From contig CAWDPO010000006.1 in NCBI GenBank assembly GCA_963804165.1, positions 160,001 through 224,000 on the forward strand: a DNA stretch of 64,000 nt, given 5' to 3'. The position numbers were made by a program, and so were the translations under genes. Each line of letters begins with the position of its first letter. Position 1 is the stretch's first letter. Below, piece by piece: positions 47,581 to 64,000 of the stretch. The notes below the pieces were generated by a model that saw only the letters and a list, made by a program, of their open reading frames with translations, searched no databases and was not told the DNA's origin. The stretch comes from an uncultured delta proteobacterium. Its GTDB lineage: Bacteria; Desulfobacterota; Binatia; UBA9968.

Positions 47581-48216
47581 GTGCAGCTTGTTCACACGAT
47601 TTATCAACCCGCCGGCGACGGCCCGTTTCCAACGATCCTGACTCTGCACGGACGCGGCGCCAACGCCTTCGACTTGCTCGGACTCGCGCCCTATCTCTGC
47701 GGCGGAAAGTTTCAGATGATTTGCCCGCAAGGACCGTTGGAAACACCGATCGGTCCCGAGGCCGTCGGCTACGCGTGGTACCCCATGAGCATGGGCGGAC
47801 CGCCGGACGTGGATGCCATTCTGTCTTCGCAAAAAAAACTGCGGGTCGTTCTCGACGAGTGCGTGAAATCCTATCCCATCGACGTCAAGAAGCTTGCGCT
47901 GCTCGGCTTTAGCCAAGGCGGTGTAATGGCGTATGGCCTCGCTCTGTCAGATCCCGGCCGCTTCGCTGCTCTTGCCGTCTTGAGCAGCTGGCTGCCGAAA
48001 GAATTGTTGTCGCAAATCAGCGTGAGCGATGCGGTCCGCTCGCTGCCTACGCTGGTACAGCACGGCACGCAGGATTCGACCATCGAATTAGCGCGTGCGC
48101 GAACTTCAGTAGAAACACTGCGGCAATTTCAAATGCCGCTAGTTTATAAGGAATACGAAATGGGCCACGAAATCAGGCCGAGAAGCCTGTCCGAATTGTC
48201 GACGTGGGCTAAATGA
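47581..48216 (+). CDS. Phospholipase/carboxylesterase (alpha/beta hydrolase); 3' end probably replaced by an insertion
   Basis: LHGRG, GFSQGG, HGTQD and MGHEI motifs. Confidence 0.9.
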   Translation: MQLVHTIYQPAGDGPFPTILTLHGRGANAFDLLGLAPYLCGGKFQMICPQGPLETPIGPEAVGYAWYPMSMGGPPDVDAILSSQKKLRVVLDECVKSYPIDVKKLALLGFSQGGVMAYGLALSDPGRFAALAVLSSWLPKELLSQISVSDAVRSLPTLVQHGTQDSTIELARARTSVETLRQFQMPLVYKEYEMGHEIRPRSLSELSTWAK

Positions 48217-48226
48217 TACCGTACTG

Positions 48227-48264
48227 AAAACGGGGGGTTAGCACATAACCCTCCGTTTTTATTT
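48227..48264 (+). terminator. Intrinsic terminator
   Basis: AAAACGGGGGGTTA-GCACA-TAACCCTCCGTTTT hairpin followed by a T-rich tail. Confidence 0.75.
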
Positions 48265-48289
48265 ACCTTTCCGCCGATACCTCGAAAAA

Positions 48290-48327
48290 CTCATTAGGAC
48301 TGATTAGGACTCATTAAGACTGATTTG
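48290..48327. repeat. Four tandem 10-bp repeats CT(C/G)ATTA(G/A)GA
   Basis: ctcattagga ctgattagga ctcattaaga ctgatttg. Confidence 0.75.
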
Positions 48328-48578
48328 TTTTGAAACGGCTTTGAAACGTGCGTAGCTCAAAAGCCGTTGCCGCTTATGGCCGAGAAGTAGCCCATCGACC
48401 GTTTCAAACGTCTCACCGCGACCGCCGGTCAAGCGGACCCGCCTATTTGACCCGCTTGAACAACACGCCGAGCTTTGATAATAAAATTTTTGCCTAAAAA
48501 GCCGCAGTCGGATGGGGGCGGGCGTCACATCCGGCTGAAATAAGTCTCCCCGGGCAGGTTCCCGCCGATTGCCGGTCG

Positions 48579-48677
48579 AGCCACAAACCTTAGAAAAAAG
48601 GCCGTAACCTCGGTTCACATGTGCTCCGCATGGAGCACTTCCGAAGGTTCGCCTCTGGGGTTTGTGGCTTTTTTTTT
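48579..48677 (+). promoter_or_regulatory. Long stem-loop with poly-U tail (leader/attenuator or sRNA candidate)
   Basis: Nested pairings AGCCACAAACC/GGTTTGTGGCT, AGGC/GCCT, AACCT/AGGTT, GTGCTCC/GGAGCAC, then a run of T. Confidence 0.6.
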
Positions 48678-48700
48678 GGGCAAAACCAAGGAGGGAATTT

Positions 48701-48946
48701 GTGGCAAGAAGGAATCGCGGATTAAAAATGGCGCTCTTGGAACGCTGGAGACAATCAAGGCGATGCCGCCGCCGCGTTGAAAATTAAATTATCGTCTTCT
48801 GTCTCGATTGGTGTCGGGTCAGAAACGACCGTCCAAATCGGAGCGGCAGAAGCTCGCGAATAGTGCTCGGCGCTAAACGAGTCAACGAATTGTTCGCCGA
48901 CCGCGAGCTGCCGAAGAAATCAATTGAGCGAAACAAGCGAATCTGA
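48701..48946 (+). pseudogene. XRE-type helix-turn-helix protein (about three frameshifts; errors or decay)
   Basis: AAGGAGGG RBS plus GTG; joined frames read MARRNRGLKMALLERW...QGDAAAALKINYRLLSRLVSGQKRPSKSERQKLAIVLG...ELF. Confidence 0.6.
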
Positions 48947-49119
48947 GCGAGCCGTCCGGTCAGATTGAGCGATGAACGAGAGCGAGCCGGTACTCTTGAT
49001 TGAGCGCGAGAAAAGAGCGAGCCGTTGCTGCCGATTGAACGTTCTCGCGGAGCGAGCCGAGTCCGAAGATAGAGCACGAACCATGAGCGAGCCGAAGTAA
49101 GCGATTGAGCGTAAATTGG
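48945..49119 (+). repeat. Dual-repeat, dual-spacer array with 35-bp period (TIGR-like guide RNA array candidate)
   Basis: GAGCGAGCCG at 48945, 48980, 49015, 49050, 49085; GATTGAGCG-like at 48963, 48998, 49033, 49068, 49103; ten unique 8-nt spacers. Strand inferred from the flanking genes. Confidence 0.8.
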
Positions 49120-49141
49120 ACGATGGGAAGGGAACAAATTT

Positions 49142-49339
49142 ATGAGTGAATGTGAAAGCTGCGGAAAAGAAACAACAGTCCAAGTTTATACCGTCCCCAC
49201 GAATGGATGGCTCCGACGCGAGACAGCGGCGCTTACCACTGCGATATGGTGCGAATCATGCGCAGAGAAAAACAAGAATTTCATCATCACGGACAAAGAA
49301 ATGCGGTTGCTTGCCGCCTCGCAACGAAGTCGACGATGA
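49142..49339 (+). CDS. Small zinc-binding hypothetical protein
   Basis: CESC...CESC; purine-rich RBS just after the array. Confidence 0.6.
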   Translation: MSECESCGKETTVQVYTVPTNGWLRRETAALTTAIWCESCAEKNKNFIITDKEMRLLAASQRSRR

Positions 49340-49674
49340 GGACGCGGACTAAGTCCGGCAGAGAAAAGCGGAACATAGACGGCGCTGAAACCATCGGAGA
49401 CCTGTTCGAAATTATGCGCACGTCGGCTTATGACATCAGATAGGCAGTCGAGATGACATTACGTATCATCGTCGACGACTGGCGCGCCGATGAATTCGAG
49501 AACGTGCTGCTCTCCGCGATTGGGATACTTGACCGGCCTAAAACACTGCACACAGATACACAGACTCACAAGACACCCAGGAGGAAACACAAGAATTCCC
49601 CGGCGACCGCCGTTCGAAGAGTGAACTGCTTGCGTTTGCGCTCTTGATTGTACTAAACGGACAAGAACTCGAAC

Positions 49675-50185
49675 ATGGACGCGGCGCGCATTTGGCAATT
49701 TATATCGGGAATCAACTGGTGATTCGCTGTCGACGTATTCGCCGCGCTGTTGACGCCTACCATCGCGATAATCACGGTGTATATCGCGTATCAGCAGTGG
49801 AGAGTGAACAAGACGCGGCTCGACCTTGACCTCTACGACCGCCGCTTGTCGATATACAAGGCGTTGGAGGAATTCTACTCCGAATCTTTTGCAAGCGGCT
49901 CTATTAACTATCCGATGGCCGGAAAACTGCGCACCGCGACCGCTGAAGCGCGATTTCTCTTTCCCAGCGAAATCGAAACGTTCCTGGATACGTTACACAA
50001 GAAGTCACTCAGGGTGGCGGGATTGCGTCAACTACTCGACCCAATTTCTGCAATAGCCGGGATTGCCCGTTGGCGACCGGCGCAGTAGAGCGGTCGACGA
50101 AGCGTCAGAATTACTTACTGACATCCAAGAGCAACTCCGAGAGGAAAGTAAGACATTGTTCCGTAAGTATCTAACCCTCGCCTAG
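49675..50185 (+). CDS. Hypothetical protein with N-terminal membrane anchor (frameshifted)
   Basis: TIAIITVYIAYQQW...LDLYDRRLSIY...EARFLF pattern, familiar from mobile-element cargo genes. Confidence 0.6.
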
Positions 50186-50218
50186 CTGGGACCGCAAAAG
50201 AAACCTTGATGCAAAACG

Positions 50219-51110
50219 GTGGCAGATATATTGTCTGGTGACGGAATTAAATTGCTTGGTGACATCGCCGCGCTGTTGTGCGATGCAACCCCGCTACGTA
50301 ATTTGAATTCACCATATGACGCAGTGCATTTTATGGGCAGTCCCCACTATTGTTTTCCCGAATTGCCGCTTGAAAAAAAACGCCTTCAGTCCCGAGTTCT
50401 TGAAGATTACAACAACTTTCTTGCTATCGCCCGTGCTCTTTTAAGGAAGCAACCGGACGCCGTCCGGGTCGAAATCGACGGTTGCGACAAGACCCTTCGT
50501 GAAATTATCGAGCAAGAGCGCGTCTGGCACGCCACGTCGGAGGAAGCCTTAATCGCGGCCACTTCCGCCATCAATGGAATTCTAACGGCGCTTTCGTCTC
50601 TTTACGATTCGAATGAAGGTTCAGTCGTGCTAGTGCCAGACACTAACGCTTTAATTACACAATCGCCGGTAATTCAGAAGTGGCGCTTCAATGACTTCCC
50701 AGAATTCGAAATCCTGCTCGTTCCAACAATCCTGTCAGAGCTGGACAAGCTGAAAATCGAACACCGCAATCCTGCTGTTCGGAAAAAGGCGCAAAGCATC
50801 ATTCGTCAGGTAAAAGAGTACCGGGTGTCGCGGACCACTCTCCGAAGGAGTAACCGTTGTGGCGAATCATATCAGCCTCCGCTCCATCGCGCATGAACCG
50901 CAGGTCAAAGACGCACTACCGTGGCTGGATGCAGATTCGCGAGACGACCGAATTCTAGCCTCATTCGTGGAAGCAATGCGTGCCCATCCTCGTTCAGTCG
51001 TCGCATTGGGTAACGGTGAGATCCCGCCATCAACCTCCAGAACAAAGCCGAGTTCGCCCGAAACGCCTACATTGAGCCGCCCGACCCGCCAGAATCCAAG
51101 GAAACGCGCT
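50219..51110 (+). CDS. PIN-domain protein (frameshifted; 3' end approximate)
   Basis: VLVPDTNALI, VPTILSELDKLK and, in the next frame, DSRDDRILA. Confidence 0.75.
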
Positions 51111-52020
51111 AAACTTGCCCCCGGAATCGTTGCTTTAATTCTATCCGTCAATTGCGTTCTCAAATCCGCTGGTTCTTTCCAGACGATGTGGTTGTATTGG
51201 CGGGTGTCGAAATGAACCGTTCTTTAAGTCGTCCTGGTGACATGACCAAATCACGGGTCGCCCCAAGCCCATAGCGAAGCCTGCTTCGAAATAAACGCCA
51301 GCGCGTTGCAGCGCTGACATCGGCAACGAGAAATTGGCAGGTCCGAATTTCGGCGATGATTTTATCGCAGATTTTTTCGTTGTGATGCTTCTTGTCTATT
51401 CTTACCGCATCCATTTTGCAGTCTATTTTTACCGCTGATTCAATTCCGTTAGTGAACGCGTCATTCATGGATGGGTCGAACGACATAGCGACAAAACATT
51501 TGCCAGGAATGCCGGAAACCGTCGAAGACTGTATTTTCTCCCATCCTTTTGGCTTCACTGTGTATGACCAATTGCCGACGCGCGTCACATATTCAATTTC
51601 GACCAAATTTTCCAACATCCAAGAAAGTTCCTGCCCCCTCGCGGCGTCGACCAGCGCCGGGTCCGTCTTGTCGTCAAACTTCACGGGGAGACCAGGTTTA
51701 GCACGTGCCGCCATTAATTCGAGAAGCCTTTCCAACCTTCTCGCTACGGGGATGTTCTCATGGGATTGCGCGTAAGCTTTCCAATTGTCATCGTCTAGAA
51801 CCACTTCTTCGCCGCGTTCTGATGATTGGCGCGTGTGCGCCGATAGATATGGCAATAGGTCTTTTGTCTCCGCCGTTATACTGTCAGGGCGCAGGGTAGT
51901 GTCGTAAAAACGTCTCGCAATTCTAAAATTTCCACACCCTGCGCACTCTACCCGTGCGTTAACATCTTGGAATAAGCGAGCCTCTCGATTACAAAGCGGG
52001 CATTCATTTGCGGGAAACAT
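51100..52020 (-). CDS. Zinc ribbon + winged-helix-like + nucleoside 2-deoxyribosyltransferase/TIR-like domain protein (frameshifted; 3' end approximate)
   Basis: CPLC...CAGC; KCFVAMSF, ICDKIIAEI...VAD, GVYFEAGFAMGLG and HFDTRQYNHIVW motifs across frames. Confidence 0.75.
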
Positions 52021-52158
52021 TTCTAACAAGACCTCCCGGTATCCGAAATATCGCAATAGGTTTTGGAAGAATTCGAGGACATTTCAGGGACTTTTGTCGT
52101 GCACTTTGGATAGCGACACCAACATGACCGCGTGGGACCGACAAACACAGAAATCTCG

Positions 52159-52848
52159 CTAGCCAAAACGCGACATATAGGTCACAAAGAGCAAAACCAT
52201 GAGAATCATTATCCACACGAGCGTTCTGTGCATCGATTGCAACGCGCCCTTTAGTTCATCCAAGCTAGATGCAACTTGATTAATCTGTGCTCGTGAGGGT
52301 CGCACGCTGTCCTCCGCGTTCCTAGCATCGAGCAAATCGTGAGGGTCACCACCGATTATCGGGACATAGAACTTTATCGATGCAATCGGAAGTTGTGGAG
52401 CGCTTTTGTTGTCCCATATCTTCCCGCTACCATCCGGCTGCCAGTCATAACTCATGCCTGCTACTTTGATTGAAATTCCTGAGGGTAATCGGCCCTGACT
52501 CACTGCGGCAAGCAGAGCATCAAAGCGCCGCCGCGGAATTTGCACATCGAGCGTATAGCTCGCCCTAATATGATACCCTTCGAGTAGTGATTCGCTTTCC
52601 TTGCAGTAGTAGAAAACGCCAATTGGCTTATCGTCATCATCTTTCTCGCCTGTATCCACCAGTCTAAAAATGCCCTCCAGTTTTTCAAAATCTTCTTCGG
52701 TTGACAGTTTCATTGATTCCCGACTCTTTAGTTTCATCTCGCCGACTAAAACGATTTTCTCGTCTTCGCCTTTTTCAACATCCACGAGCAACCGAATTGT
52801 TGTCGGAACCAAATCGAGAATTACTGTGCGGCCAATCACGTCTGTCAT
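52159..52848 (-). CDS. Hypothetical protein with C-terminal transmembrane helix
   Basis: Intact 229-aa ORF in the cargo block; hydrophobic C-terminus. Confidence 0.65.
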   Translation of the reverse strand: MTDVIGRTVILDLVPTTIRLLVDVEKGEDEKIVLVGEMKLKSRESMKLSTEEDFEKLEGIFRLVDTGEKDDDDKPIGVFYYCKESESLLEGYHIRASYTLDVQIPRRRFDALLAAVSQGRLPSGISIKVAGMSYDWQPDGSGKIWDNKSAPQLPIASIKFYVPIIGGDPHDLLDARNAEDSVRPSRAQINQVASSLDELKGALQSMHRTLVWIMILMVLLFVTYMSRFG

Positions 52849-52861
52849 CGTTCGGCTTTCG

Positions 52862-53389
52862 CTACATGTGTGGCGATTGGTATAACTTCTCCAAAATATG
52901 CCTTGCGCCCCTTTCCGCCGCTTCAGTCGGTGAACCCTTTATCAAATCCATGTCCGCTGCCGAAAAATTGAAATTGTCTTGATGAGTAAGAATAAACCAA
53001 CCACGATAAGCGAGAAACAAGGGCGACGTACACCCCGTAAGCTTTTGATACATCACCTCCGCGTCGAAAATTAAATACTCTGTTTGCGTTGGGAAGAAAT
53101 TGAAACTCGCGTCTGCGTCCCTGTCTGCGTGTTTAAAAAAATTTTCTGCGGCATTTAGCGCTTTGCTGACTGCTTTTTGAAATTCTGGCTTAGCGTGTTG
53201 CACCGATAAATCTTTGACAATCATTGCGCCAAGCTTCTTCTTTTTCACGATATCTCGTATCACGTTGTAACTTGCCGCTGCGAGTGTATGAATTGATATC
53301 TCATCGCCTTCGAGGAAATAGAGACGTATGGCTGTCTCTAACTGCCGTTTTGCGGCGTCAAGTTTTGTAATTTCTATGCCCGCTGTCAT
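52862..53389 (-). CDS. Hypothetical protein
   Basis: ITKLDAAKRQLETAI...SIHTLAAAS...NFFKHADRD; the N..KH segment is reminiscent of HEPN-like motifs (inference). Confidence 0.65.
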   Translation of the reverse strand: MTAGIEITKLDAAKRQLETAIRLYFLEGDEISIHTLAAASYNVIRDIVKKKKLGAMIVKDLSVQHAKPEFQKAVSKALNAAENFFKHADRDADASFNFFPTQTEYLIFDAEVMYQKLTGCTSPLFLAYRGWFILTHQDNFNFSAADMDLIKGSPTEAAERGARHILEKLYQSPHM

Positions 53390-53884
53390 AAGTTATCGGT
53401 CGATGAAGCCGAAGGAACCAAGAAGCGAAAACCGCGATTCCTCATGCTCGTAGTTTTTCTATTCTCAAGCCACCAAAAACCTGTGAGCGGAACTAGGAGA
53501 AGAAGCCCGTTCATCGACGATATGGAATATCCTGACCGTCCATGGTCATCTCCTTTGCCGTAAGGGCCGTCTTGTATCGCAGGCGGATAATGGAAACAAC
53601 CGGAGCCGGGGCCGCTCTCTGAGGGGGTCCAAACGATTCGCTCAATTGCATCAAACTGGCGATGAACGGTGGACCTCCATGACCTGGTCTTTTTTTGGAA
53701 TGAACTGCGGCGAGCCGTTTGCAGATCTCGCAGGGCTCGGTAGACCAATGCGCGCTGCCGCCGTTCGTATGCTGGACGACGAAAACATCACGGATATTCC
53801 GTCGCACGAAGGGTTCGCGTTCCTTCAGGAACCGGGTTGCCAGCATGCGGCTGAAATTCTTACCGTGTGACCGGAGGGCCATCG

Positions 53885-54088
53885 TCAATCCCGCACGATG
53901 CGGCGCGTCCTGGACTTGAACGTCGACGATTTCTTTAGCGACCGCGCCATAGACTCAAGGAACTGCTCGCGCTTCTGCCCACAGTTCACGGCTTCCTCCC
54001 GGTCGCTGAACCACCGCCAACCGTCAGCCGAGTAGACGCGCATGGGCTGACCGTGAACAACTATTTCCCGCTCGCGAAATTTGCTCAT
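53885..54088 (-). CDS. Small hypothetical protein
   Basis: MSKFREREIVVHGQPMRVYSADGWRWFS..., the 3' part of the 53885-54505 ORF; lies downstream of the structured region. Confidence 0.45.
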   Translation of the reverse strand: MSKFREREIVVHGQPMRVYSADGWRWFSDREEAVNCGQKREQFLESMARSLKKSSTFKSRTRRIVRD

Positions 54089-54155
54089 CGTCGTCTCGAT
54101 TCTGCCGCCGGAACTGCCGCCATCGGGGTGAGGGACGACGACAGCCCGGCAGGCG

Positions 54156-54400
54156 TTCCGACCAAAAACCATGCGCGGCGAGCGCACGGCGACGACGGCG
54201 CATGGAACGCCGTTGGCCGGAATTCCCCGATTGCGAAAGTGGTCGCAACCGGGAAATCGGGAAAAGTTTTCGCCAGAATCCGCCGCGTAAGTCGGTGAAC
54301 CTTCACGGCGGTCTGGCGTCTCCCCGTGTCCGCACAATTCCACGGAACTCTCGTGGGCGTCGATTTTCTCTGCGGTTGCGAATCGAGACCGCATCGACGC
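54156..54400 (-). ncRNA. Candidate structured RNA (five consecutive hairpins)
   Basis: Back-to-back inverted repeats; G-U pairs work on the minus strand. Confidence 0.45.
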
Positions 54401-54422
54401 ACAGACCCGAGGGAAACCGAAT

Positions 54423-55049
54423 TCATTTGTAGTAGCAATAAATCTTGTCGAGCTCGTCGCCGTACTCTCGCGCAGCCAAGATGCACTCCCCGAATGCTTT
54501 GACATCCGAATCCTCGTCGATGCCCCGTTGCTCGGCGAGTTTCTTGCCGCGACAGTAGAAGCGATTCTCGCCGCAGCGCTTGCAGCGCGTATCGTCGGCG
54601 GCGTATTCCCCCCGCTCGACAGCGCCAGCGACCGCCGGAATCAGCAAGGCGAGCAAATCCCAATCGCTGTCCGCGATGAACCCGTCCGTCGCCGCTCGCG
54701 CTAAACTCGGGTTCGCGCTTCGAACGTTAGCGAGGGCTCGCTTGTATTCGTCGACCGGAAACGCGACGCCGGGGCCGACGTTCTGAAGTTTCCGCCGAGC
54801 GAGACTGTCAAGGACCGAACGGGCGAGCGTTCGAACCTTGTCGAGGTCGGCGAGAAGGCCGGCCATCGCTTGTTGGGCCGGGGACAGCGTCTCGTACGAT
54901 TTCACTACGGCGATGTCGCCGAACGTGTACTGCATCACTAATTCAGGATTCTCCGCGCACGCTCGGCGAAAGGCGGTTCGGTAATCGCCGCCGTAGTTGC
55001 ACGCCTTGGCGTCTAGCTCGCTCTGTGCGTTTTTTTGAATTGTGTTCAC
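54423..55049 (-). CDS. Hypothetical phage-like protein
   Basis: Repeated LD..A....DY..A......NP.L motif; cotranscribed with the terminase block. Confidence 0.6.
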   Translation of the reverse strand: MNTIQKNAQSELDAKACNYGGDYRTAFRRACAENPELVMQYTFGDIAVVKSYETLSPAQQAMAGLLADLDKVRTLARSVLDSLARRKLQNVGPGVAFPVDEYKRALANVRSANPSLARAATDGFIADSDWDLLALLIPAVAGAVERGEYAADDTRCKRCGENRFYCRGKKLAEQRGIDEDSDVKAFGECILAAREYGDELDKIYCYYK

Positions 55050-55075
55050 GTCGTGCTCTTCCCTTCTGTCGGTTT

Positions 55076-55735
55076 TTAACCGACCGCTTCGATAGTCTCC
55101 GTTAGTGCGCCGGTCGTCGTCGATTCGGACCCCGCAACAGCGTCCTTTGCGACAGCGTCCTTTGCGACCGGCATCTGCCGATTGGCGTTCGCGACGATTC
55201 CGGTGAGGAGTTCGTCGTACGGCTGCTTGTAGGCGCGGTCCGCCGAATGCCCGCCGTGGAAAATCGCCGTAATCCGGCGCTCGAGGTGCACCAGGCGGAA
55301 CTGCGCCTGCGCGCCGTGGGTTTCGGTATACGCCTTCATGCGGTTCAATCGCACCGAGTGCAGCGCGGCGCGAGCCGTCAAGGCCAAGACCATCTGCTCG
55401 ATGTCTTTCGCCTCGGCGAGTGCTCCTTCCACGTCGGCGTCGTACTTCGCGCGGTCTTCGAGGGCGTGGGCTCGCTCGCGTTCGGCGAATAAATCCTCGA
55501 TATCGACGCCCGCTTGATTCACGCGGATTTCCAATCGCACGCGGTCGCGGTCGAGTTTGAAAAGCTCCGCGTCTATCCTATCGAGCGTCGGTTCGTCCGC
55601 ACCGTTCCTGACCTTTTCTTCGTAGCCGCCCTTCATCCGCACCAGATTCGTCTCGGTCTCGGCGAGCTGGGTTTTCAAGTCGGCCTGTTTTTTTTTCGCC
55701 TCGTCCAGCTTCTTTTCAACTTCCTGCACTTCCAT
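55076..55735 (-). CDS. Coiled-coil hypothetical protein
   Basis: E/K/A-rich heptads; GGGGG RBS; 15-bp tandem duplication (KDAVA twice). Confidence 0.7.
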   Translation of the reverse strand: MEVQEVEKKLDEAKKKQADLKTQLAETETNLVRMKGGYEEKVRNGADEPTLDRIDAELFKLDRDRVRLEIRVNQAGVDIEDLFAERERAHALEDRAKYDADVEGALAEAKDIEQMVLALTARAALHSVRLNRMKAYTETHGAQAQFRLVHLERRITAIFHGGHSADRAYKQPYDELLTGIVANANRQMPVAKDAVAKDAVAGSESTTTGALTETIEAVG

Positions 55736-55789
55736 GCTTTTCCCCCTTTGTTGGTTTCGGTTTCGGAAAAATGAATTTCACGACGATTC

Positions 55790-55942
55790 TCATCGGTACA
55801 CGCGCCATGCCTTTCTGCGCCGCATCGGAGGTTTCGGAACTGCTCCACGGTCGCGCTGTCTTGCGAGTGTCTTGTCCGCGCACAGCTGGCAATACCGACT
55901 ACGGGGTGACGCCTTTCTCCCGCAACTCGATGCGCATCTCAT
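55790..55942 (-). CDS. Small Cys-rich basic protein (50 aa)
   Basis: MRCASSCGRKASPRSRYCQLCADK...; ATG overlaps the terminase stop; below the ORF-track size cutoff. Confidence 0.5.
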   Translation of the reverse strand: MRCASSCGRKASPRSRYCQLCADKTLARQRDRGAVPKPPMRRRKAWRVYR

Positions 55943-57486
55943 AAATCCCAAAATCCCCGACCGGAGCGAGAGCGGTCGATAAGGACGTGCACGTCATCGG
56001 TCGGCGCGCCTTGGTCGAGCCATCCCACTCCGGCGTTGACCGTTCGTTCGGGCGTGAATTGGTTCATGCGCAAGAATTCCTCGGCATCGAACGAATCGCC
56101 GCCCAAGACACTGGCAAGGCGGGCAACCACCGCCGCGTAGTCGTCGTGCTCGTTGTTGGCATGGTCAATCCGCATCCCGCGCCACAGCAAGCCGAGAAAC
56201 TGATTCTGCAAATCCGCGTTGTCCAGGAGAACGATTTGACCGCTGTTCAACCGGGGTCCGAAGGCCTCGTAAGTCTGATGGGTCGTTAGTTCGGACAACA
56301 CGGCCGAGATGCCGTGCTGCGCGAACGCCGCCTGGAACGTGTTGTGCGCGAATCTATCGACCGTGACGGTGCCGATGCGGTACGGCTTGGCGGTAGCGGC
56401 GAACAAGCCGACCGTTTTCAACGGGTCGAACGGCGTGCCGCATTGCTGGTTGATTATCAAGTCGAGAATGACGCGGTCGTCCTAGTCGAGGTGGCCTACG
56501 GCTAACGTCGCGTCGTCGTTGCTGCCGTCCGACATATCGACGGCTGCGGCATAATCGATGCCGGATACGGGCGGACGGACTTTGATGCCGACGGCGATGC
56601 TGTTGAGGATGCTTTCGGCTGCGAACGCTGCGCCTTGCGGTTGTCCGCCGACGTTCTCGTGCAAACGGCGGAAGAGATGGCCGGGCAAGCGCAACCGCTG
56701 CTGTTCTATGTACTCGTTGAAACCGTTGACGAACGGCAAGGACGGGTTCGCTCGCTCGACCCCGGTCGGCTTGCTGGCGAATTCCGGGTCGGTGCAATAA
56801 TCGGATGCGTACCAGCTGAAATAGAAACGCTTGTCGGTGCCGGCCTTCCCGCGTGCGACATAGTCGAACATCGGGACGCCGGGACGCCGTAATAGCGTGT
56901 CGTAGGATTCGAACCACTGGATGGCGTCGGTTCGATGCGGGTCAAGCGCAAGGCCTTCGAGCAAGGCGTAGTCGCGCTGGGTCTGGAGTTCGTTGACGTG
57001 CAAGAACAGATAAGACTTGCCGTGCTGCCCGAAGATGTCGCGACCGGAGAGGATGCGCAAATCGCCGTTGCCGTCCTTGCGGTAGACGCCGTCGGTCTTG
57101 ATGCTGAGCCGTTTCGAGAGTTCGGGATTCTTGCGGATGAATTTCTTGAGCAAGTCGAGAGCTTCGTTCGCCTGCTCAACGTCGAACGAAACGACGCGGC
57201 AGTCGTTGCCGGTCGTCGTGCGCCACGCCATCAAGCGGTGCAGCCCGGCAAATAAACCGTCGAACGTCTTCCAGCACTTCTTGCCGCGACCGGTGAGCAC
57301 GTTGTTGTACTGCGGGCGGTCTTGCTCGTCGTCCCACGTGTCGATTGCTGCGCTCAAAGTGCGCTGCCGGTAGGGCTCTATCGTTTCGAGCAACGGACGG
57401 CCGTCGAGCCAGTAGAGCGAACGGGCGAACGTCAGGACGGGAATCTGACGCGGCTTGCGGGCGGTGCTATTTGCGGTTGTGGTCAT
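55939..57486 (-). CDS. Terminase large subunit-like protein (frameshift near 56480)
   Basis: PYRQR Q-motif, GRGKKCWKT Walker A-like, LHVNE Walker B-like, ANPSL, VDMSDGSNDD nuclease motif and C-terminal HDD. Confidence 0.75.
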
Positions 57487-57776
57487 TTGCCGTCTGAGAT
57501 GTTCGCTTCGGTCGCCTGCTCGCGCTCCCACGGCGCAAGGTCTATCGTTCGCGCCTGCCGTTCGAGTCCGAGGCGCATCAAGTTGGCGACGATGCGTGTC
57601 TGAATCGGAGCGATGTAGGCGTCAATTTTTGAGAGTGCCGCGATGTTTTTACGGACACTCGGCTTGGTTTCCAAAATCTCGTCGCGGCATTCGTACAGGT
57701 CGTTCAGGGTTTGCTTGTCGCGCTTGAGGTGGTCGATGATTTCCAACTTCTGCGCGGTCAAGACTTCCTTGCCGGG
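57483..57776 (-). pseudogene. Possible terminase small subunit-like gene, apparently 5'-truncated at the element junction
   Basis: Reading frame open back to the junction (PGKEVLTAQKLEII...LMRLGLERQAR); stop overlaps the large-subunit ATG. Confidence 0.45.
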
Positions 57777-57918
57777 CTAGAAGAGAACGTAATGAAGACG
57801 GGGGCTAGCCTATAGCCTGACATTACCGTCACAGCCCTGCGACGGTCGTTGAAATAAAAAAAGGGGCGACCAGCCGGTCGCCCCTACAAGAATAATCGTG
57901 TTAATGCTTCGGGACCTC

Positions 57919-58797
57919 TTACGTGCGCATGTAGCTCAGATCTTTTGCCATCGCTTCGAGCCGGGCAATGCGCTCTTCCATCGGCGGATGAGTGCTGAAT
58001 AGCTTAGCCAAGCCGCCGACCGTCAGCGGATTAACGATAAACATATGTGCCGTCGAGTTGGCAGTCGCATCGCTTACCTGGAGCGGGATATTCTGCGCGC
58101 CCATTTCCAGCTTGCGCAGCGCGCTTGCCAGCGCCAGCGGATCGCCGCTGACCTTGGCGCCGCCTTCGTCAGCCATATATTCGCGCGAGCGCGACACGGC
58201 CATTTGAATCAACATTGCCGCCATCGGCGCCACGATCATCATGAACAGCAAGCTGAAAATATTGCTGCCGCCTTCTTCGCGGTCGCGGCTGCCGCCGCCG
58301 AAGATCGCGGCCCACTGCGCCATATACGCTAGGTAGCTGATCGCGCCTGCGAGCGTCGCCGCGATGCTACTGATGAGAATATCGCGGTGTTTGACGTGGC
58401 TAAGCTCGTGGCCCAAAACACCGGAGAGCTCGCGTTTGTTGAGAATGCGCCGGATACCTTGAGTGACGGCCACGGCCGCATGTTCGGGATTGCGCCCTGT
58501 CGCGAACGCGTTCGGGGTTTCCTCCGGAATGATGTAAACCTTCGGCATCGGCAAACCCGCTCTGACGGTGAGATCGCGAACGATGCCATAGAGCTCCGGA
58601 TCGTCGTTTGCGGTAATTTCTTGCGCGCCGTACATCTTGAGAACAATCTTGTCGCTGAACCAGTAACTGAAAAAGTTCATGGCGCCGGCCATGATTAGAG
58701 CGAGAACGGCTCCGTTCGGACCGCCGACCATGTGGCCGATCCAGACGACGAGCGCCGTTAACGCTGCCAGGAGAATCGTGGTTCGAAAGCCGTTCAT
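57919..58797 (-). CDS. htpX: Zinc metalloprotease HtpX
   Basis: [24 protein letters not shown] and FSTHPP motifs. Confidence 0.95.
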
Positions 58798-62802: not shown

Positions 62803-64000
62803 CTAGATCTGTTCCAGCTCCTCGCTCAGGCGCTGCTGCTGATAAAGCTCGGCGTAAACGCCGCCGTCGCGCACCAGTTTGTCGTGATTGCCGCGCTCGA
62901 CAATCTTGCCTTCATCGAGCACGAGAATTTCGTCCGCCTCGCGCACGGCGGAAATCCGGTGCGAAATAATCAAGCAGGTTTTTTCTTTGAGAATCGAGCG
63001 GAGCTCGTGGAGAATCTCGGCTTCGGTCTGGGCATCGACGCTGGATAGACAATCGTCCAGAATCAACACCGGGGGATTCATGATCAGGGCGCGCGCCAGT
63101 GTAGCGCGTTGCTTTTGTCCGCCCGACAGCGTGACGCCGCGCTCGCCGACCACGGTATCGAGTCCCAGCGGGAAAAATTTCCACGTCACGGTCCAGCTTG
63201 GCAATCTCGACGGCGCGGGCGACCTCTTCCGCGGATAACTTTCCCGGCCCAGGGCAAGATTCGCCTTCAGAGAGGTGGAAAAAAGAAATGGCTCCTGGGG
63301 CACGTAGCCGATCAAGCGGCGCAGCTCGCGCAATGCAACTTGCGATATATCCTGACCGTCCACGAGAATCGCGCCGGCCGAGACATCGAAGAGCCGCGGC
63401 ACGAATTGCGCCAGCGGTGCTCTTACCCGAGCCGACGCGTCCGACCAAGCCCACTGTACGGCCGACGGAAAGCGCGAAATTGATCTCTTCGACCGCCCCA
63501 CGGCCGTTTTTTTGCCGCTCGTAGGCGAAGGAGACGTCGCGGAATTCGATGCCTTCCTTCAGTCCGTCGATCGCCTGAGGCACCACTCCGTCCCTAATTT
63601 CGGGGTTCGTCTGGAGAATTTCTTCCAGGCGGCGCATAGCGGCGCGGCCGCGCTCGACCAGAGAAAGCATCCAACCGAACGCCGCCGTGGGCCACGCCAG
63701 CACGTTGAGATAGGCGATAAACGCGACGATATCGGCGACCAGCAGGTCGCCGCGCATCACCCGAACGCCGCCGTACCAGATCACGATCACACGGTCAGGG
63801 CGTTGATCCCTTGCATGACCGGATTGACGATGCCGCGCATCTTCGCCAATTCCATGCTTTTGACTTCGTAGTCCTTATTGAAACCGATGAACTGTTGAGT
63901 TTGATAATCCTCCTGCGCATAGGCTTTAACGACGTGCATCCCGCTCAGATTTTCCTGCACATGGCTGCTCAGAACCGACATTTGTTGTTGCACTTCGAGC
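62803..64000 (-). CDS. ABC exporter, fused permease/ATPase (MdlA-like), partial and frameshifted
   Basis: GRVGSGKST, VPQEPFLFS, LSGGQKQR and ILDDCLSSVD motifs; runs off the window end. Confidence 0.85.

What the first reader, a model, noticed from the sequence alone, without database searches (positions are those of the whole stretch)
48945..49119. TIGR-like dual-spacer array with an exact 35-bp period inside a phage-like element
Seen: five units of GAGCGAGCCG-N8-GATTGAGCG-N8. The first repeat is invariant; the second varies in units 3 and 4 (GATTGAACG, GATAGAGCA). Spacer pairs are tccggtca/atgaacga, gtactctt/cgagaaaa, ttgctgcc/ttctcgcg, agtccgaa/cgaaccat and aagtaagc/taaattgg, all different. 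A period of 35 is not a multiple of 3, which argues against a coding repeat. The repeats are far too short for CRISPR, and unique fixed-length spacers are unlike a simple tandem repeat. A degenerate unit precedes it (48904-48944). Established: TIGR-Tas systems use arrays of about 36-nt units with alternating edge and loop repeats and two short spacers, processed into guides for Nop-domain Tas proteins, often in phages. Inference: this is a TIGR-type or related split-guide RNA array with a slightly shorter unit.
Basis: partly seen in the sequence, partly recalled or inferred. Interest (0 to 1): 0.93.

Follow-up and report, generated by a model that had tools for sequence, protein, structure and literature searches.

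The report
Orphan TIGR array in prophage remnant
A five-unit array of the recently described TIGR guide-RNA type lies in a decayed phage-like island of a bacterial chromosome, without the Tas protein that normally uses such arrays, so it is most likely a stranded remnant.

Summary
Window 48945-49119 holds five units of exactly 35 bp: GAGCGAGCCG, 8 variable bases, GATTGAGCG (variant in units 3 and 4), 8 variable bases. It is the only such array in the 7.5-Mb genome.

The TIGR reading is supported. The same 10-nt edge repeat heads 36-nt dual-repeat arrays (GAGCGAGCCG-N8-GAGAGnnCCG-N8) in 201 of 239 fetched metagenome and viral loci. Of those 239 loci, 116 encode a conserved protein on the array strand. 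Its profile matches the solved TasR (9MTY, E 2e-22) and TasH.

The locus is not a complete TIGR-Tas system:
- No Tas of that clade was found in the window, in the 81%-complete genome, or in 30 other genomes of the genus.
- The array has no truncated terminal edge and no terminator.
- A 65-aa zinc-ribbon ORF starts 22 nt after the array, where tas would start.

The array lies in a ~9.6-kb insertion carrying terminase-like fragments. The insertion site is empty in 3 of 5 relatives compared.

Verdict: an orphan, probably inert, TIGR-type array with a 9-nt loop repeat. It is a new member of a known kind, of moderate interest.

The parts
48945..49119 (+). Five-unit TIGR-type dual-repeat array with a 35-nt unit: edge GAGCGAGCCG, spacer A 8 nt, loop GATTGAGCG (9 nt), spacer B 8 nt. 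The + strand is the sense strand, by analogy with Tas-linked arrays.
   Evidence: Searches give the sequence and its uniqueness. link the family to Tas. Orientation: arrays lie on the tas strand in 116 of 116 loci.
48870..48944 (+). One or two degenerate units at the 5' side of the array (starts about 48870 and 48904). The second has a 14-nt instead of an 8-nt second spacer.
   Evidence: Mask score is 12 of 19 at both positions. About 0.1% of window positions score 12 or more. Weak evidence.
49142..49339 (+). 65-aa ORF with two CxxC pairs (zinc-ribbon-like). Its ATG lies 22 nt after the array, in the place where tas starts in canonical loci. It is not Tas-like.
   Evidence: only a weak treble-clef hit, E 6e-4, below the cut-off. 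One search shows the junctions in canonical loci. One search found no relatives in IMG/VR.
48579..48677 (+). Long imperfect hairpin followed by a T-run, upstream of the array. It may be a terminator that insulates the array region from transcription coming from the left.
   Evidence: (inverted repeats I1-I3). Function is inferred.
48271..57842 (.). ~9.6-kb inserted phage-like island carrying the array, between an esterase gene (47581-48216) and an M48 peptidase gene (57919-58797).
   Evidence: The site is empty in 3 of 5 same-genus genomes (G018, G019, G014: flanks 5-33 bp apart). G012 and G024 carry other inserts of 1.5-1.7 kb.
55939..57531 (-). Terminase large subunit-like gene in two reading-frame pieces (56482-57531 and 55939-56460).
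   Evidence: phrog_9 E 5.4e-10 for the N-terminal piece.
50219..51215 (+). PIN_4-like gene in two overlapping frames (50219-50896 and 50859-51215).
   Evidence: Pfam PIN_4 E 1.4e-4, 22.6 bits against a cut-off of 21.9. The frame break is read.

Best explanation
This is a dual-repeat TIGR array: a tandem set of guide-RNA units, each with two 8-nt spacers framed by an edge repeat and a loop repeat. It descends from a phage-borne TIGR lineage whose arrays use the edge GAGCGAGCCG and whose effector is a nuclease-less, TasA-like Nop-domain protein.

Here the array is stranded in a ~9.6-kb remnant of an integrated phage-like element that has no tas gene. If it is transcribed, that would be on the + strand, together with the small ORFs that follow. 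The transcript would be a pre-tigRNA.

In dual-repeat systems the Tas protein itself cuts the edge repeats and then uses the two spacers to bind the two strands of a DNA target. With no Tas present, the array is most likely unprocessed and inert, like an orphan CRISPR array.

Shown: the array, its repeat homology to Tas-flanked arrays, the failure to detect Tas, and the inserted island. Inferred: the strand, the descent, and the lack of function.
For: 1. Abundance of the edge. The same motif read backwards gave 8 single-match stretches in IMG/VR.

2. Array architecture. In the 239 fetched loci there are 1026 units of period 36 in 201 loci. The consensus is GAGCGAGCCG-N8-GAGAGnnCCG-N8. Repeat columns are 75-96% conserved, except the two central loop positions (40% and 58%). 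Spacer columns have a top base of about 27-38%.

3. Link to a protein. 116 of 239 loci encode a conserved protein of about 250-350 aa. It is always on the array strand (116 of 116), with the nearest edge a median 36 bp away.

4. The protein is Tas. A 45-sequence profile hits PDB 9MTY at E 2.1e-22, TasH entries at 2.2e-12 and IS621 at 1.4e-4. Faure et al. name 9MTY as the TasR RNP model.

5. Protein-anchored check. Of 80 loci picked by Tas similarity, 70 have periodic 10-mers. 12 carry at least 3 exact GAGCGAGCCG on the tas strand and 0 on the other strand. Others use close variants such as GAGCGAGCCA and GAACGAGTCA, and GATTGAAACA paired with GAGAGCACCA.

6. Precedent for the window's loop. 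GATAGAAKCG loops and occasional 35-nt units occur in three related phage contigs (L092, L140, L269). Their arrays share flanks but differ in unit content, and end in a truncated edge plus a terminator.

7. Covariation in the loop. Loop position 3 covaries with position 8: G/C in 820 of 933 units, and with T at position 3 a non-C at position 8 in 17 of 28. The window's GAT...GCG and GAT...ACG loops fit this.

8. RNA fold. The + strand RNA is not more stable than shuffles (z +1.34). This agrees with unstructured dual-repeat precursors.

9. No Tas.
- Profile search of the own genome: 0 matches at E<=10.
- Six-frame hmmsearch: window best E 0.97, genome none at E<=10.
- No G[IVLMA]G[PEA] motif in a Nop-like context in the island.
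- hhalign of the profile against 6 island ORFs: all below 1% probability.
- 0 of 31 genus genomes.
- The same profile found Tas in 2 of 3 viral records, as a positive control.

10. The island is an insertion with terminase-like fragments.
Against: - A defining part of a TIGR-Tas system, the adjacent tas gene, is missing.
- The array lacks the 3' truncated edge and the terminator that the paper and the L092-type arrays show. The window ends directly in a ribosome-binding-site-like stretch and an ATG.
- The loop is 9 nt, not 10. It departs from the family's conserved GAG...CCG at two box positions.
- The family was found by searching with the window's own edge, so edge identity is partly by construction. 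The independent support is the shared 8+8 spacing, the loop position and the protein-anchored sample.
- The genome is only 81% complete, so a tas gene could lie in unassembled sequence.
- No spacer is shared with the ~2000 family units beyond chance: 1 exact 8-mer match where about 0.3 is expected.
- No island gene is shared with any fetched TIGR locus.
- Inertness is inferred. No expression data exist.
Confidence: 0.7

Rival explanations
1. The array is functional in trans. It is transcribed and loaded onto a Tas protein made elsewhere, either from an unassembled part of the genome or from a superinfecting phage of the same TIGR clade. It then acts either as extra guides or as a decoy that soaks up the invader's Tas.
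For: - All five edges are intact, the period is exactly 35 in all units, and the loop changes keep the covarying positions compatible. This does not look like random decay.
- In three related phage contigs, arrays lie away from any tas in the sequence held.
- The genome is 81% complete.
Against: - No Tas in the own genome or in 30 other genus genomes.
- No array of this edge in 89 other genomes of the taxonomic family or in 400 of the phylum. There is therefore no sign that such phages are common in this lineage.
- No target for the spacer pairs in the own genome above shuffled controls: 45 hits with at most 1 mismatch, against 18-35 in controls. None in the fetched loci.
Confidence: 0.15
2. 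The repeats act as DNA: iterons or operator sites of the integrated element, bound by a replication or regulatory protein. The likeness to TIGR is then incidental.
For: - Conserved short repeats with variable spacers in a long non-coding stretch at the end of a mobile element also fit iterons (established knowledge, recalled).
- The array sits just upstream of the first + strand ORFs.
Against: - The edge is identical to that of hundreds of arrays that flank Tas genes on the Tas strand.
- The 35-bp period is not a multiple of the helical repeat (inference).
- No Rep, HTH or other DNA-binding family was found in the ORFs scanned.
Confidence: 0.05
3. The array works with a new, non-Nop effector encoded next to it, such as the zinc-ribbon ORF or the PIN-like gene. 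That would make it a TIGR-like system with a swapped protein.
For: - The 65-aa ORF starts where tas starts in canonical loci.
- A PIN-like nuclease gene lies 1.1 kb downstream.
Against: - No relatives of the zinc-ribbon ORF or of the 112-aa ORF in IMG/VR.
- No island protein recurs beside any fetched array.
- The PIN-like gene is split over two frames.
- A 65-aa protein is far smaller than any known guide-RNA effector (inference).
Confidence: 0.04

Closest known systems
Dual-repeat TIGR arrays of TIGR-Tas systems (Faure et al. 2025, PMC12045711). Specifically the phage-borne clade with edge GAGCGAGCCG and a TasA-like protein, for example locus L148.
   Same: Two alternating short repeats (10 and 9-10 nt). 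Two fixed 8-nt spacers. A unit of 35-36 nt. Five or more units. An identical edge repeat. Both repeats start with GA and end with CG. A phage-derived setting.
   Different: No tas gene. No truncated terminal edge or terminator. A 9-nt loop of GAT...GCG type instead of GAGAGnnCCG. Only five clean units. Located in a bacterial chromosome island.
Arrays of the related phage contigs L092, L140 and L269 (G041)
   Same: The same edge. GAT-type loops (GATAGAAKCG). Occasional 35-nt units: L160, the first fetched stretch of the G041 contig later read whole as L269, is the only IMG/VR hit with two consecutive 35-nt periods. No tas in the sequence held.
   Different: Mostly 36-nt units with 10-nt loops. 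They end in a truncated edge plus a terminator. Unit content turns over between the three contigs. No gene is shared with the window.
Orphan CRISPR arrays (recalled, not tested here)
   Same: A guide-RNA array left without its effector genes, often in decayed mobile elements.
   Different: A different repeat architecture, effector family and processing.
Iterons of plasmid and phage replication origins (recalled)
   Same: Short conserved direct repeats with variable spacing sequence in a non-coding stretch of a mobile element.
   Different: Iterons are bound as DNA by a Rep protein encoded nearby. No Rep was found here, and the repeat is shared with RNA arrays of Tas loci.

Membership tests
TIGR dual-repeat array | Two distinct alternating repeats of 8-12 nt | tested here: met
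   10-nt edge and 9-nt loop, alternating in 5 units. Definition taken from PMC12045711 passages.
TIGR dual-repeat array | Two variable spacers of fixed length (8-12 nt) per unit; unit about 36 nt; usually 5-15 units | tested here: met
   8+8 nt, all ten spacers different. The unit is 35 nt in 5 of 5 units. There are five units plus 1-2 degenerate ones.
TIGR dual-repeat array | Edge and loop repeats share covarying start (box D) and end (box C) motifs | tested here: inconclusive
   Both repeats start with GA and end with CG. The loop has T for G at position 3 and G or A for C at the third-last position. In the family these two positions covary, and the last base covaries between edge and loop across clades. 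No structure or binding data are available.
TIGR dual-repeat array | Repeat homology to arrays that flank bona fide tas genes | tested here: met
   The edge is identical to arrays in 201 of 239 loci; 116 of those 239 loci carry a Tas-profile protein on the same strand. 12 of 80 protein-anchored loci carry the same edge.
TIGR dual-repeat array | [quoted passage not shown] | tested here: not met
   After unit 5 come 22 nt and then an ATG. No terminator-like site follows on the + strand before 49864.
TIGR dual-repeat array | Transcribed and processed into ~36-nt tigRNAs | not testable with these tools
   No RNA run holds the stretch, and the one DNA run did not cover the array.
Complete TIGR-Tas system | Nop-domain Tas gene next to the array | tested here: not met
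   - No Pfam Nop in the genome.
- No Tas-profile match in the window or genome.
- hhalign below 1% for 6 island ORFs.
- The genome is 81% complete.
Iterons / DNA operator array | Cognate DNA-binding Rep or regulator encoded beside the repeats | tested here: not met
   No Rep, HTH or similar family in the ORFs scanned with Pfam and PHROGs. Unknown small ORFs remain.

The most novel reading that the evidence does not exclude
The orphan array is kept because it works in trans against, or with, invading TIGR-TasA phages. Its transcript would be cut and loaded by the invader's Tas protein. That would either titrate the protein as an RNA decoy or redirect it with the resident element's own spacers. 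This would be a TIGR counterpart of RNA anti-CRISPRs or of orphan-array hijacking.
Probability: 0.08. Interest if true: 0.75.

Novelty: new member of a known kind. Interest (0 to 1): 0.42.

Why it matters
Published TIGR surveys start from tas genes. TIGRFinder searched around 20,096 tas loci (10.64898/2026.09.09.750476, section 5). Arrays that have lost or never had a neighbouring tas are therefore invisible to those surveys.

This case shows that a TIGR-type array can be found from sequence alone. It can also be assigned to a Tas clade by its edge repeat. And it shows that such arrays can persist as orphans in chromosomal phage remnants.

It gives a concrete substrate for two open questions. 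How much loop length and box sequence can a TasA protein tolerate (9-nt loop, GAT...GCG)? Do orphan arrays have any trans activity?

If it is only a relic, it is an ordinary by-product of prophage decay.

Tried and rejected
**Searches that led nowhere**
- Tandem Repeats Finder gave nothing at the array.
- Rfam at gathering threshold found only a tRNA-Asn in the window.
- The pattern edge-N8-GATTGAGCG gave 14 single matches in genome contigs and 1 in viral contigs. None had an array (0 of 15 loci). I take these as chance hits.
- A DNA search of 40 relatives found only short matches outside the array. The two loci near island genes (L022, L023) hold no array.

**Targets and shared spacers**
- Spacer pairs (A next to the reverse complement of B, both orders, gaps 0-6, also direct orders) against the own genome: 45 hits with at most 1 mismatch and 1 exact, against 18-35 and 0-2 in ten shuffled controls. 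Not significant.
- Against 1.7 Mb of fetched loci: one 1-mismatch hit.
- Spacers shared with family units: 1 exact 8-mer, which is chance level.

**Island genes elsewhere**
- No island protein or DNA is shared with fetched TIGR loci, apart from the repeats themselves.
- No tblastx match between the L092-type phage contigs and the window or genome.
- No IMG/VR relatives of the 65-aa or 112-aa ORFs.

**Sequencing runs**
- No RNA holder is listed. One DNA run holds a small share of the stretch. When laid, it gave two 151-bp contigs at 49103-49253 and 49466-49621, and none across the array.

**Literature**
- 'TIGR array' with 'orphan': one unrelated paper.
- The edge motif together with 'tigRNA': 0 papers.
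- The edge motif alone: 41 papers. The 10 listed are unrelated primer lists.
- Supplements of Faure et al. (figs S4, S5, S14, table S1) are closed. They may already show this repeat family.

**Readings considered and rejected**
- A coding repeat. The period is not a multiple of 3, and the minus-strand ORF 48784-49137 is low-complexity and has no family.
- A homopolymer sequencing error as the cause of the 35-nt period.
- Frameshifted island genes as proof of decay. An ABC transporter gene outside the island (62803-63790) is also split, and the assembly has long homopolymer runs. Assembly indels therefore cannot be excluded.

Full report
**1. The observation**

Window 48945-49119 reads as five head-to-tail units of exactly 35 bp. 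Each unit is GAGCGAGCCG, 8 variable bases, GATTGAGCG, 8 variable bases.
- The first repeat is invariant in 5 of 5 units.
- The second repeat is GATTGAACG in unit 3 and GATAGAGCA in unit 4.
- The ten spacers are all different.
- The exact 10-mer occurs five times in the window on both strands, all in the array.
- Against a 19-position mask the units score 17-19, and nothing else in the window exceeds 15.
- In the whole 7.5-Mb assembly (46 contigs, 81% complete) this is the only chain of four or more 8-mers at a fixed period of 28-50, apart from two homopolymer runs.
- Tandem Repeats Finder misses it.
- Two weak, degenerate units may precede it at about 48870 and 48904 (12 of 19 each).

**2. What the repeats are related to**

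A search with both repeats of the window found only single chance matches in one-genome-per-species contigs and in IMG/VR.

A search with two edges 24-27 nt apart gave a very different result. The same motif read backwards gave 8 single matches in IMG/VR.

In the 239 fetched loci, consecutive edges are 36 nt apart 1026 times (201 loci), 37 nt apart 101 times and 35 nt apart 28 times. The 36-nt consensus is GAGCGAGCCG-N8-GAGAGnnCCG-N8. Repeat columns are 75-96% conserved apart from the two central loop positions, and spacer columns are near random. This is the edge / spacer A / loop / spacer B layout that Faure et al. define for TIGR arrays: two alternating 8-12-nt repeats, short fixed spacers, 5-15 units (PMC12045711, passages read).

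**3. The associated protein**

In locus L148 a 351-aa ORF lies between two such arrays.
- Homologues occur in 116 of the 239 loci. They are always on the strand on which the arrays read GAGCGAGCCG (116 of 116). The nearest edge is a median 36 bp from the ORF.
- Arrays lie upstream only in 30 loci, downstream only in 55 and on both sides in 28 of the 116.
- A 45-sequence alignment (A1) searched as a profile against PDB sequences hits 9MTY at E 2.1e-22, TasH entries at 2.2e-12 and IS621 transposase at 1.4e-4. Faure et al. state that 9MTY is their TasR RNP model.
- The match covers the Nop/C-terminal part of TasR, including the C-terminal GHxxYIxPP stretch. The family has only about 30 residues before it, so it is TasA-like, without a nuclease domain. 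This last point is inferred from the alignment ranges.
- Pfam does not recognise the protein.

As a check that does not depend on the edge sequence, I fetched 80 IMG/VR loci by similarity to the protein.
- 70 of the 80 loci have periodic 10-mers.
- 12 carry three or more exact GAGCGAGCCG on the tas strand, and none on the other strand.
- The rest use close variants: GAGCGAGCCA, GAACGAGTCA, GAGTGAACCC, and GATTGAAACA paired with GAGAGCACCA.
- The last base of edge and loop changes together across these variants.

**4. How the window's array fits**

It shares with this clade the exact edge, the 8+8 spacer lengths and a second repeat that starts with GA at offset 18.

Its loop is one base shorter. 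It reads GAT...GCG where the clade mostly has GAG...CCG.
- GAT-type loops (GATAGAAKCG) occur in three related phage contigs (L092, L140, L269).
- The only IMG/VR hit with two consecutive 35-nt periods is L160, the first fetched stretch of the same G041 contig as L269.
- In the family, loop position 3 and position 8 covary: G with C in 820 of 933 distinct units, and with T at position 3 a non-C at position 8 in 17 of 28.
- The window's loops have T with G (four units) or T with A (unit 3), which fits that pattern.

The three phage contigs also show what an active array of this subtype looks like. They have identical flanks and units gained, lost or duplicated between contigs. Each array ends in a truncated edge and a strong terminator.

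The + strand RNA of the window's array is not more stable than shuffled sequence (z +1.34). This fits the unstructured precursors of dual-repeat arrays.

**5. What is missing**

In canonical loci with an upstream array, the last truncated edge (GAGCG) runs straight into the tas start codon. In the window the fifth unit is followed by 22 nt and the ATG of a 65-aa ORF with two CxxC pairs. There is no truncated edge and no terminator.

No Tas was found:
- Pfam Nop gives nothing in the genome.
- The L148 protein and the A1 profile give nothing at E<=10.
- A six-frame hmmsearch gives a best E of 0.97 in the window, and nothing at E<=10 in the genome.
- The island has no G-x-G-P type motif in a Nop-like context.
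- hhalign of A1 against six unknown island ORFs gives probabilities below 1%.
- The same profile found Tas in 2 of 3 viral records, so the search works.
- None of 31 genomes of the genus has the protein.
- None of 89 other genomes of the taxonomic family, or of 400 of the phylum, has the edge-edge pattern.

The caveat is that the genome is only 81% complete.

**6. The setting**

The array lies in a stretch of lower G+C, between an esterase gene with its terminator (47581-48216, 48225-48261) and an M48 peptidase gene (57919-58797).
- In G018, G019 and G014 these two flanks are 5-33 bp apart.
- In G012 and G024 they are separated by other inserts of 1.5-1.7 kb. The G012 insert reads like the C-terminal part of a tyrosine integrase, by my reading of the printed sequence; I ran no family search on it.
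- The ~9.6 kb from about 48271 to 57842 is therefore an insertion at a recurrent integration site.
- It carries a terminase large subunit-like gene in two frames (phrog_9, E 5.4e-10), a PIN_4-like gene in two frames, a zinc-ribbon plus phrog_16139 gene in two frames, and unknown ORFs.
- No integrase, Rep or HTH family was found in the ORFs scanned.
- A gene outside the island is also split and the assembly has long homopolymer runs. The frame breaks may therefore be assembly errors rather than decay.

**7. Mechanism**

According to the papers read, in dual-repeat systems the Tas protein binds the box motifs of edge and loop. It cuts the precursor inside the edge with a Tyr/His dyad. It then pairs spacer A with one DNA strand and spacer B with the other. 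TasA acts as an RNA-guided repressor (PMC12045711, section 6 and passages; 10.64898/2026.09.09.750476, section 5 and passages).

By homology, the window's array would encode five such guides of 8+8 nt on the + strand. Without a Tas protein they cannot be matured or used.

I therefore read the array as a stranded remnant of a TIGR-TasA phage lineage, probably inert (confidence 0.7). No targets were found in the own genome or in the fetched loci. No spacers are shared with the family beyond chance.

**8. Rivals**

- Trans use with a Tas from unassembled sequence or from an invading phage, as guide or decoy, is not excluded (0.15). The intact edges and the strict 35-nt period argue against random decay.
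- DNA-level iterons are now unlikely (0.05), because the repeat is shared with RNA arrays of Tas loci and no binding protein is in sight.
- A new effector next to the array is unlikely (0.04), because none of the neighbouring genes recurs with arrays anywhere I could search.

**9. Novelty and limits**

TIGR-Tas was described in 2025 and thousands of arrays are catalogued, all anchored on tas loci. This array is a new member of that kind with three unusual traits: no tas, a 9-nt loop, and a 35-nt unit.

I found no paper on orphan TIGR arrays in the searched library. Expression could not be tested.

Noticed in passing
window 48230-48350; L024, L025, L026: About 100 bp are conserved at four places in three genomes of the genus, in two of them at this same integration site. 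The stretch covers the esterase terminator hairpin, AAAAACYCATTAGGAC and TTTGAAACGGCTTTGAAA. It occurs once in the own genome. It may be an attachment-site or element-end sequence.
   Followed up: partly
window 48289-48325: A 10-bp tandem repeat, ACTCATTAGG x3.7, lies at the left end of the island. It overlaps the conserved end motif.
   Followed up: no
L025 (G012:C79), insert between the esterase and M48 peptidase flanks: A 1.55-kb insert at the same site in a relative ends in what reads like the C-terminal part of a tyrosine integrase (my reading of the sequence printed; no family search was run). The site appears to be a recurrent integration spot.
   Followed up: partly
window 48330-48680: About 350 nt of non-coding sequence end in a long imperfect hairpin and a T-run (48579-48677). 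No Rfam family matches at gathering threshold. It could be a small RNA or a bidirectional terminator.
   Followed up: no
window 57854-57897: A terminator-like hairpin (GGGGCGACC...GGTCGCCCC) has many near-identical copies across genomes of the genus. It looks like a dispersed REP-like terminator element.
   Followed up: no
window 50219-51215, 51141-52056, 55939-57531, 62803-63790; genome C12:63722, C36:81529: Several genes inside and outside the island are split over two frames. The assembly also has homopolymer runs of at least 60 G or A. Indel errors in the assembly are as likely as real pseudogenes.
   Followed up: partly
window 51160-52056 and 51141-51326 (- strand): A zinc-ribbon N-terminus is joined to a phrog_16139 domain with a weak nucleoside 2-deoxyribosyltransferase-like hit (E 0.012). 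It could be a defence-type gene of the island.
   Followed up: no
L092, L140, L269 (three related phage contigs): The same TIGR locus has identical flanks but different unit content in the three contigs (units inserted, deleted, duplicated). A 62-aa ORF lies between two sub-arrays. No tas is present in up to 15.3 kb held. This is a natural example of TIGR array turnover.
   Followed up: partly
L183 / G042:C1:17709-19784: In a complete 41-kb viral genome with terminal repeats, the Tas profile matches two parts of a single 731-aa open frame, separated by about 1.2 kb. This could be a Tas with a large insertion or with intragenic array units.
   Followed up: no
L148:4413-7110 (reverse strand coordinates): One 21-kb viral contig carries 41 exact copies of the edge repeat in the fetched locus, grouped in two arrays that flank its tasA-like gene.
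   Followed up: partly
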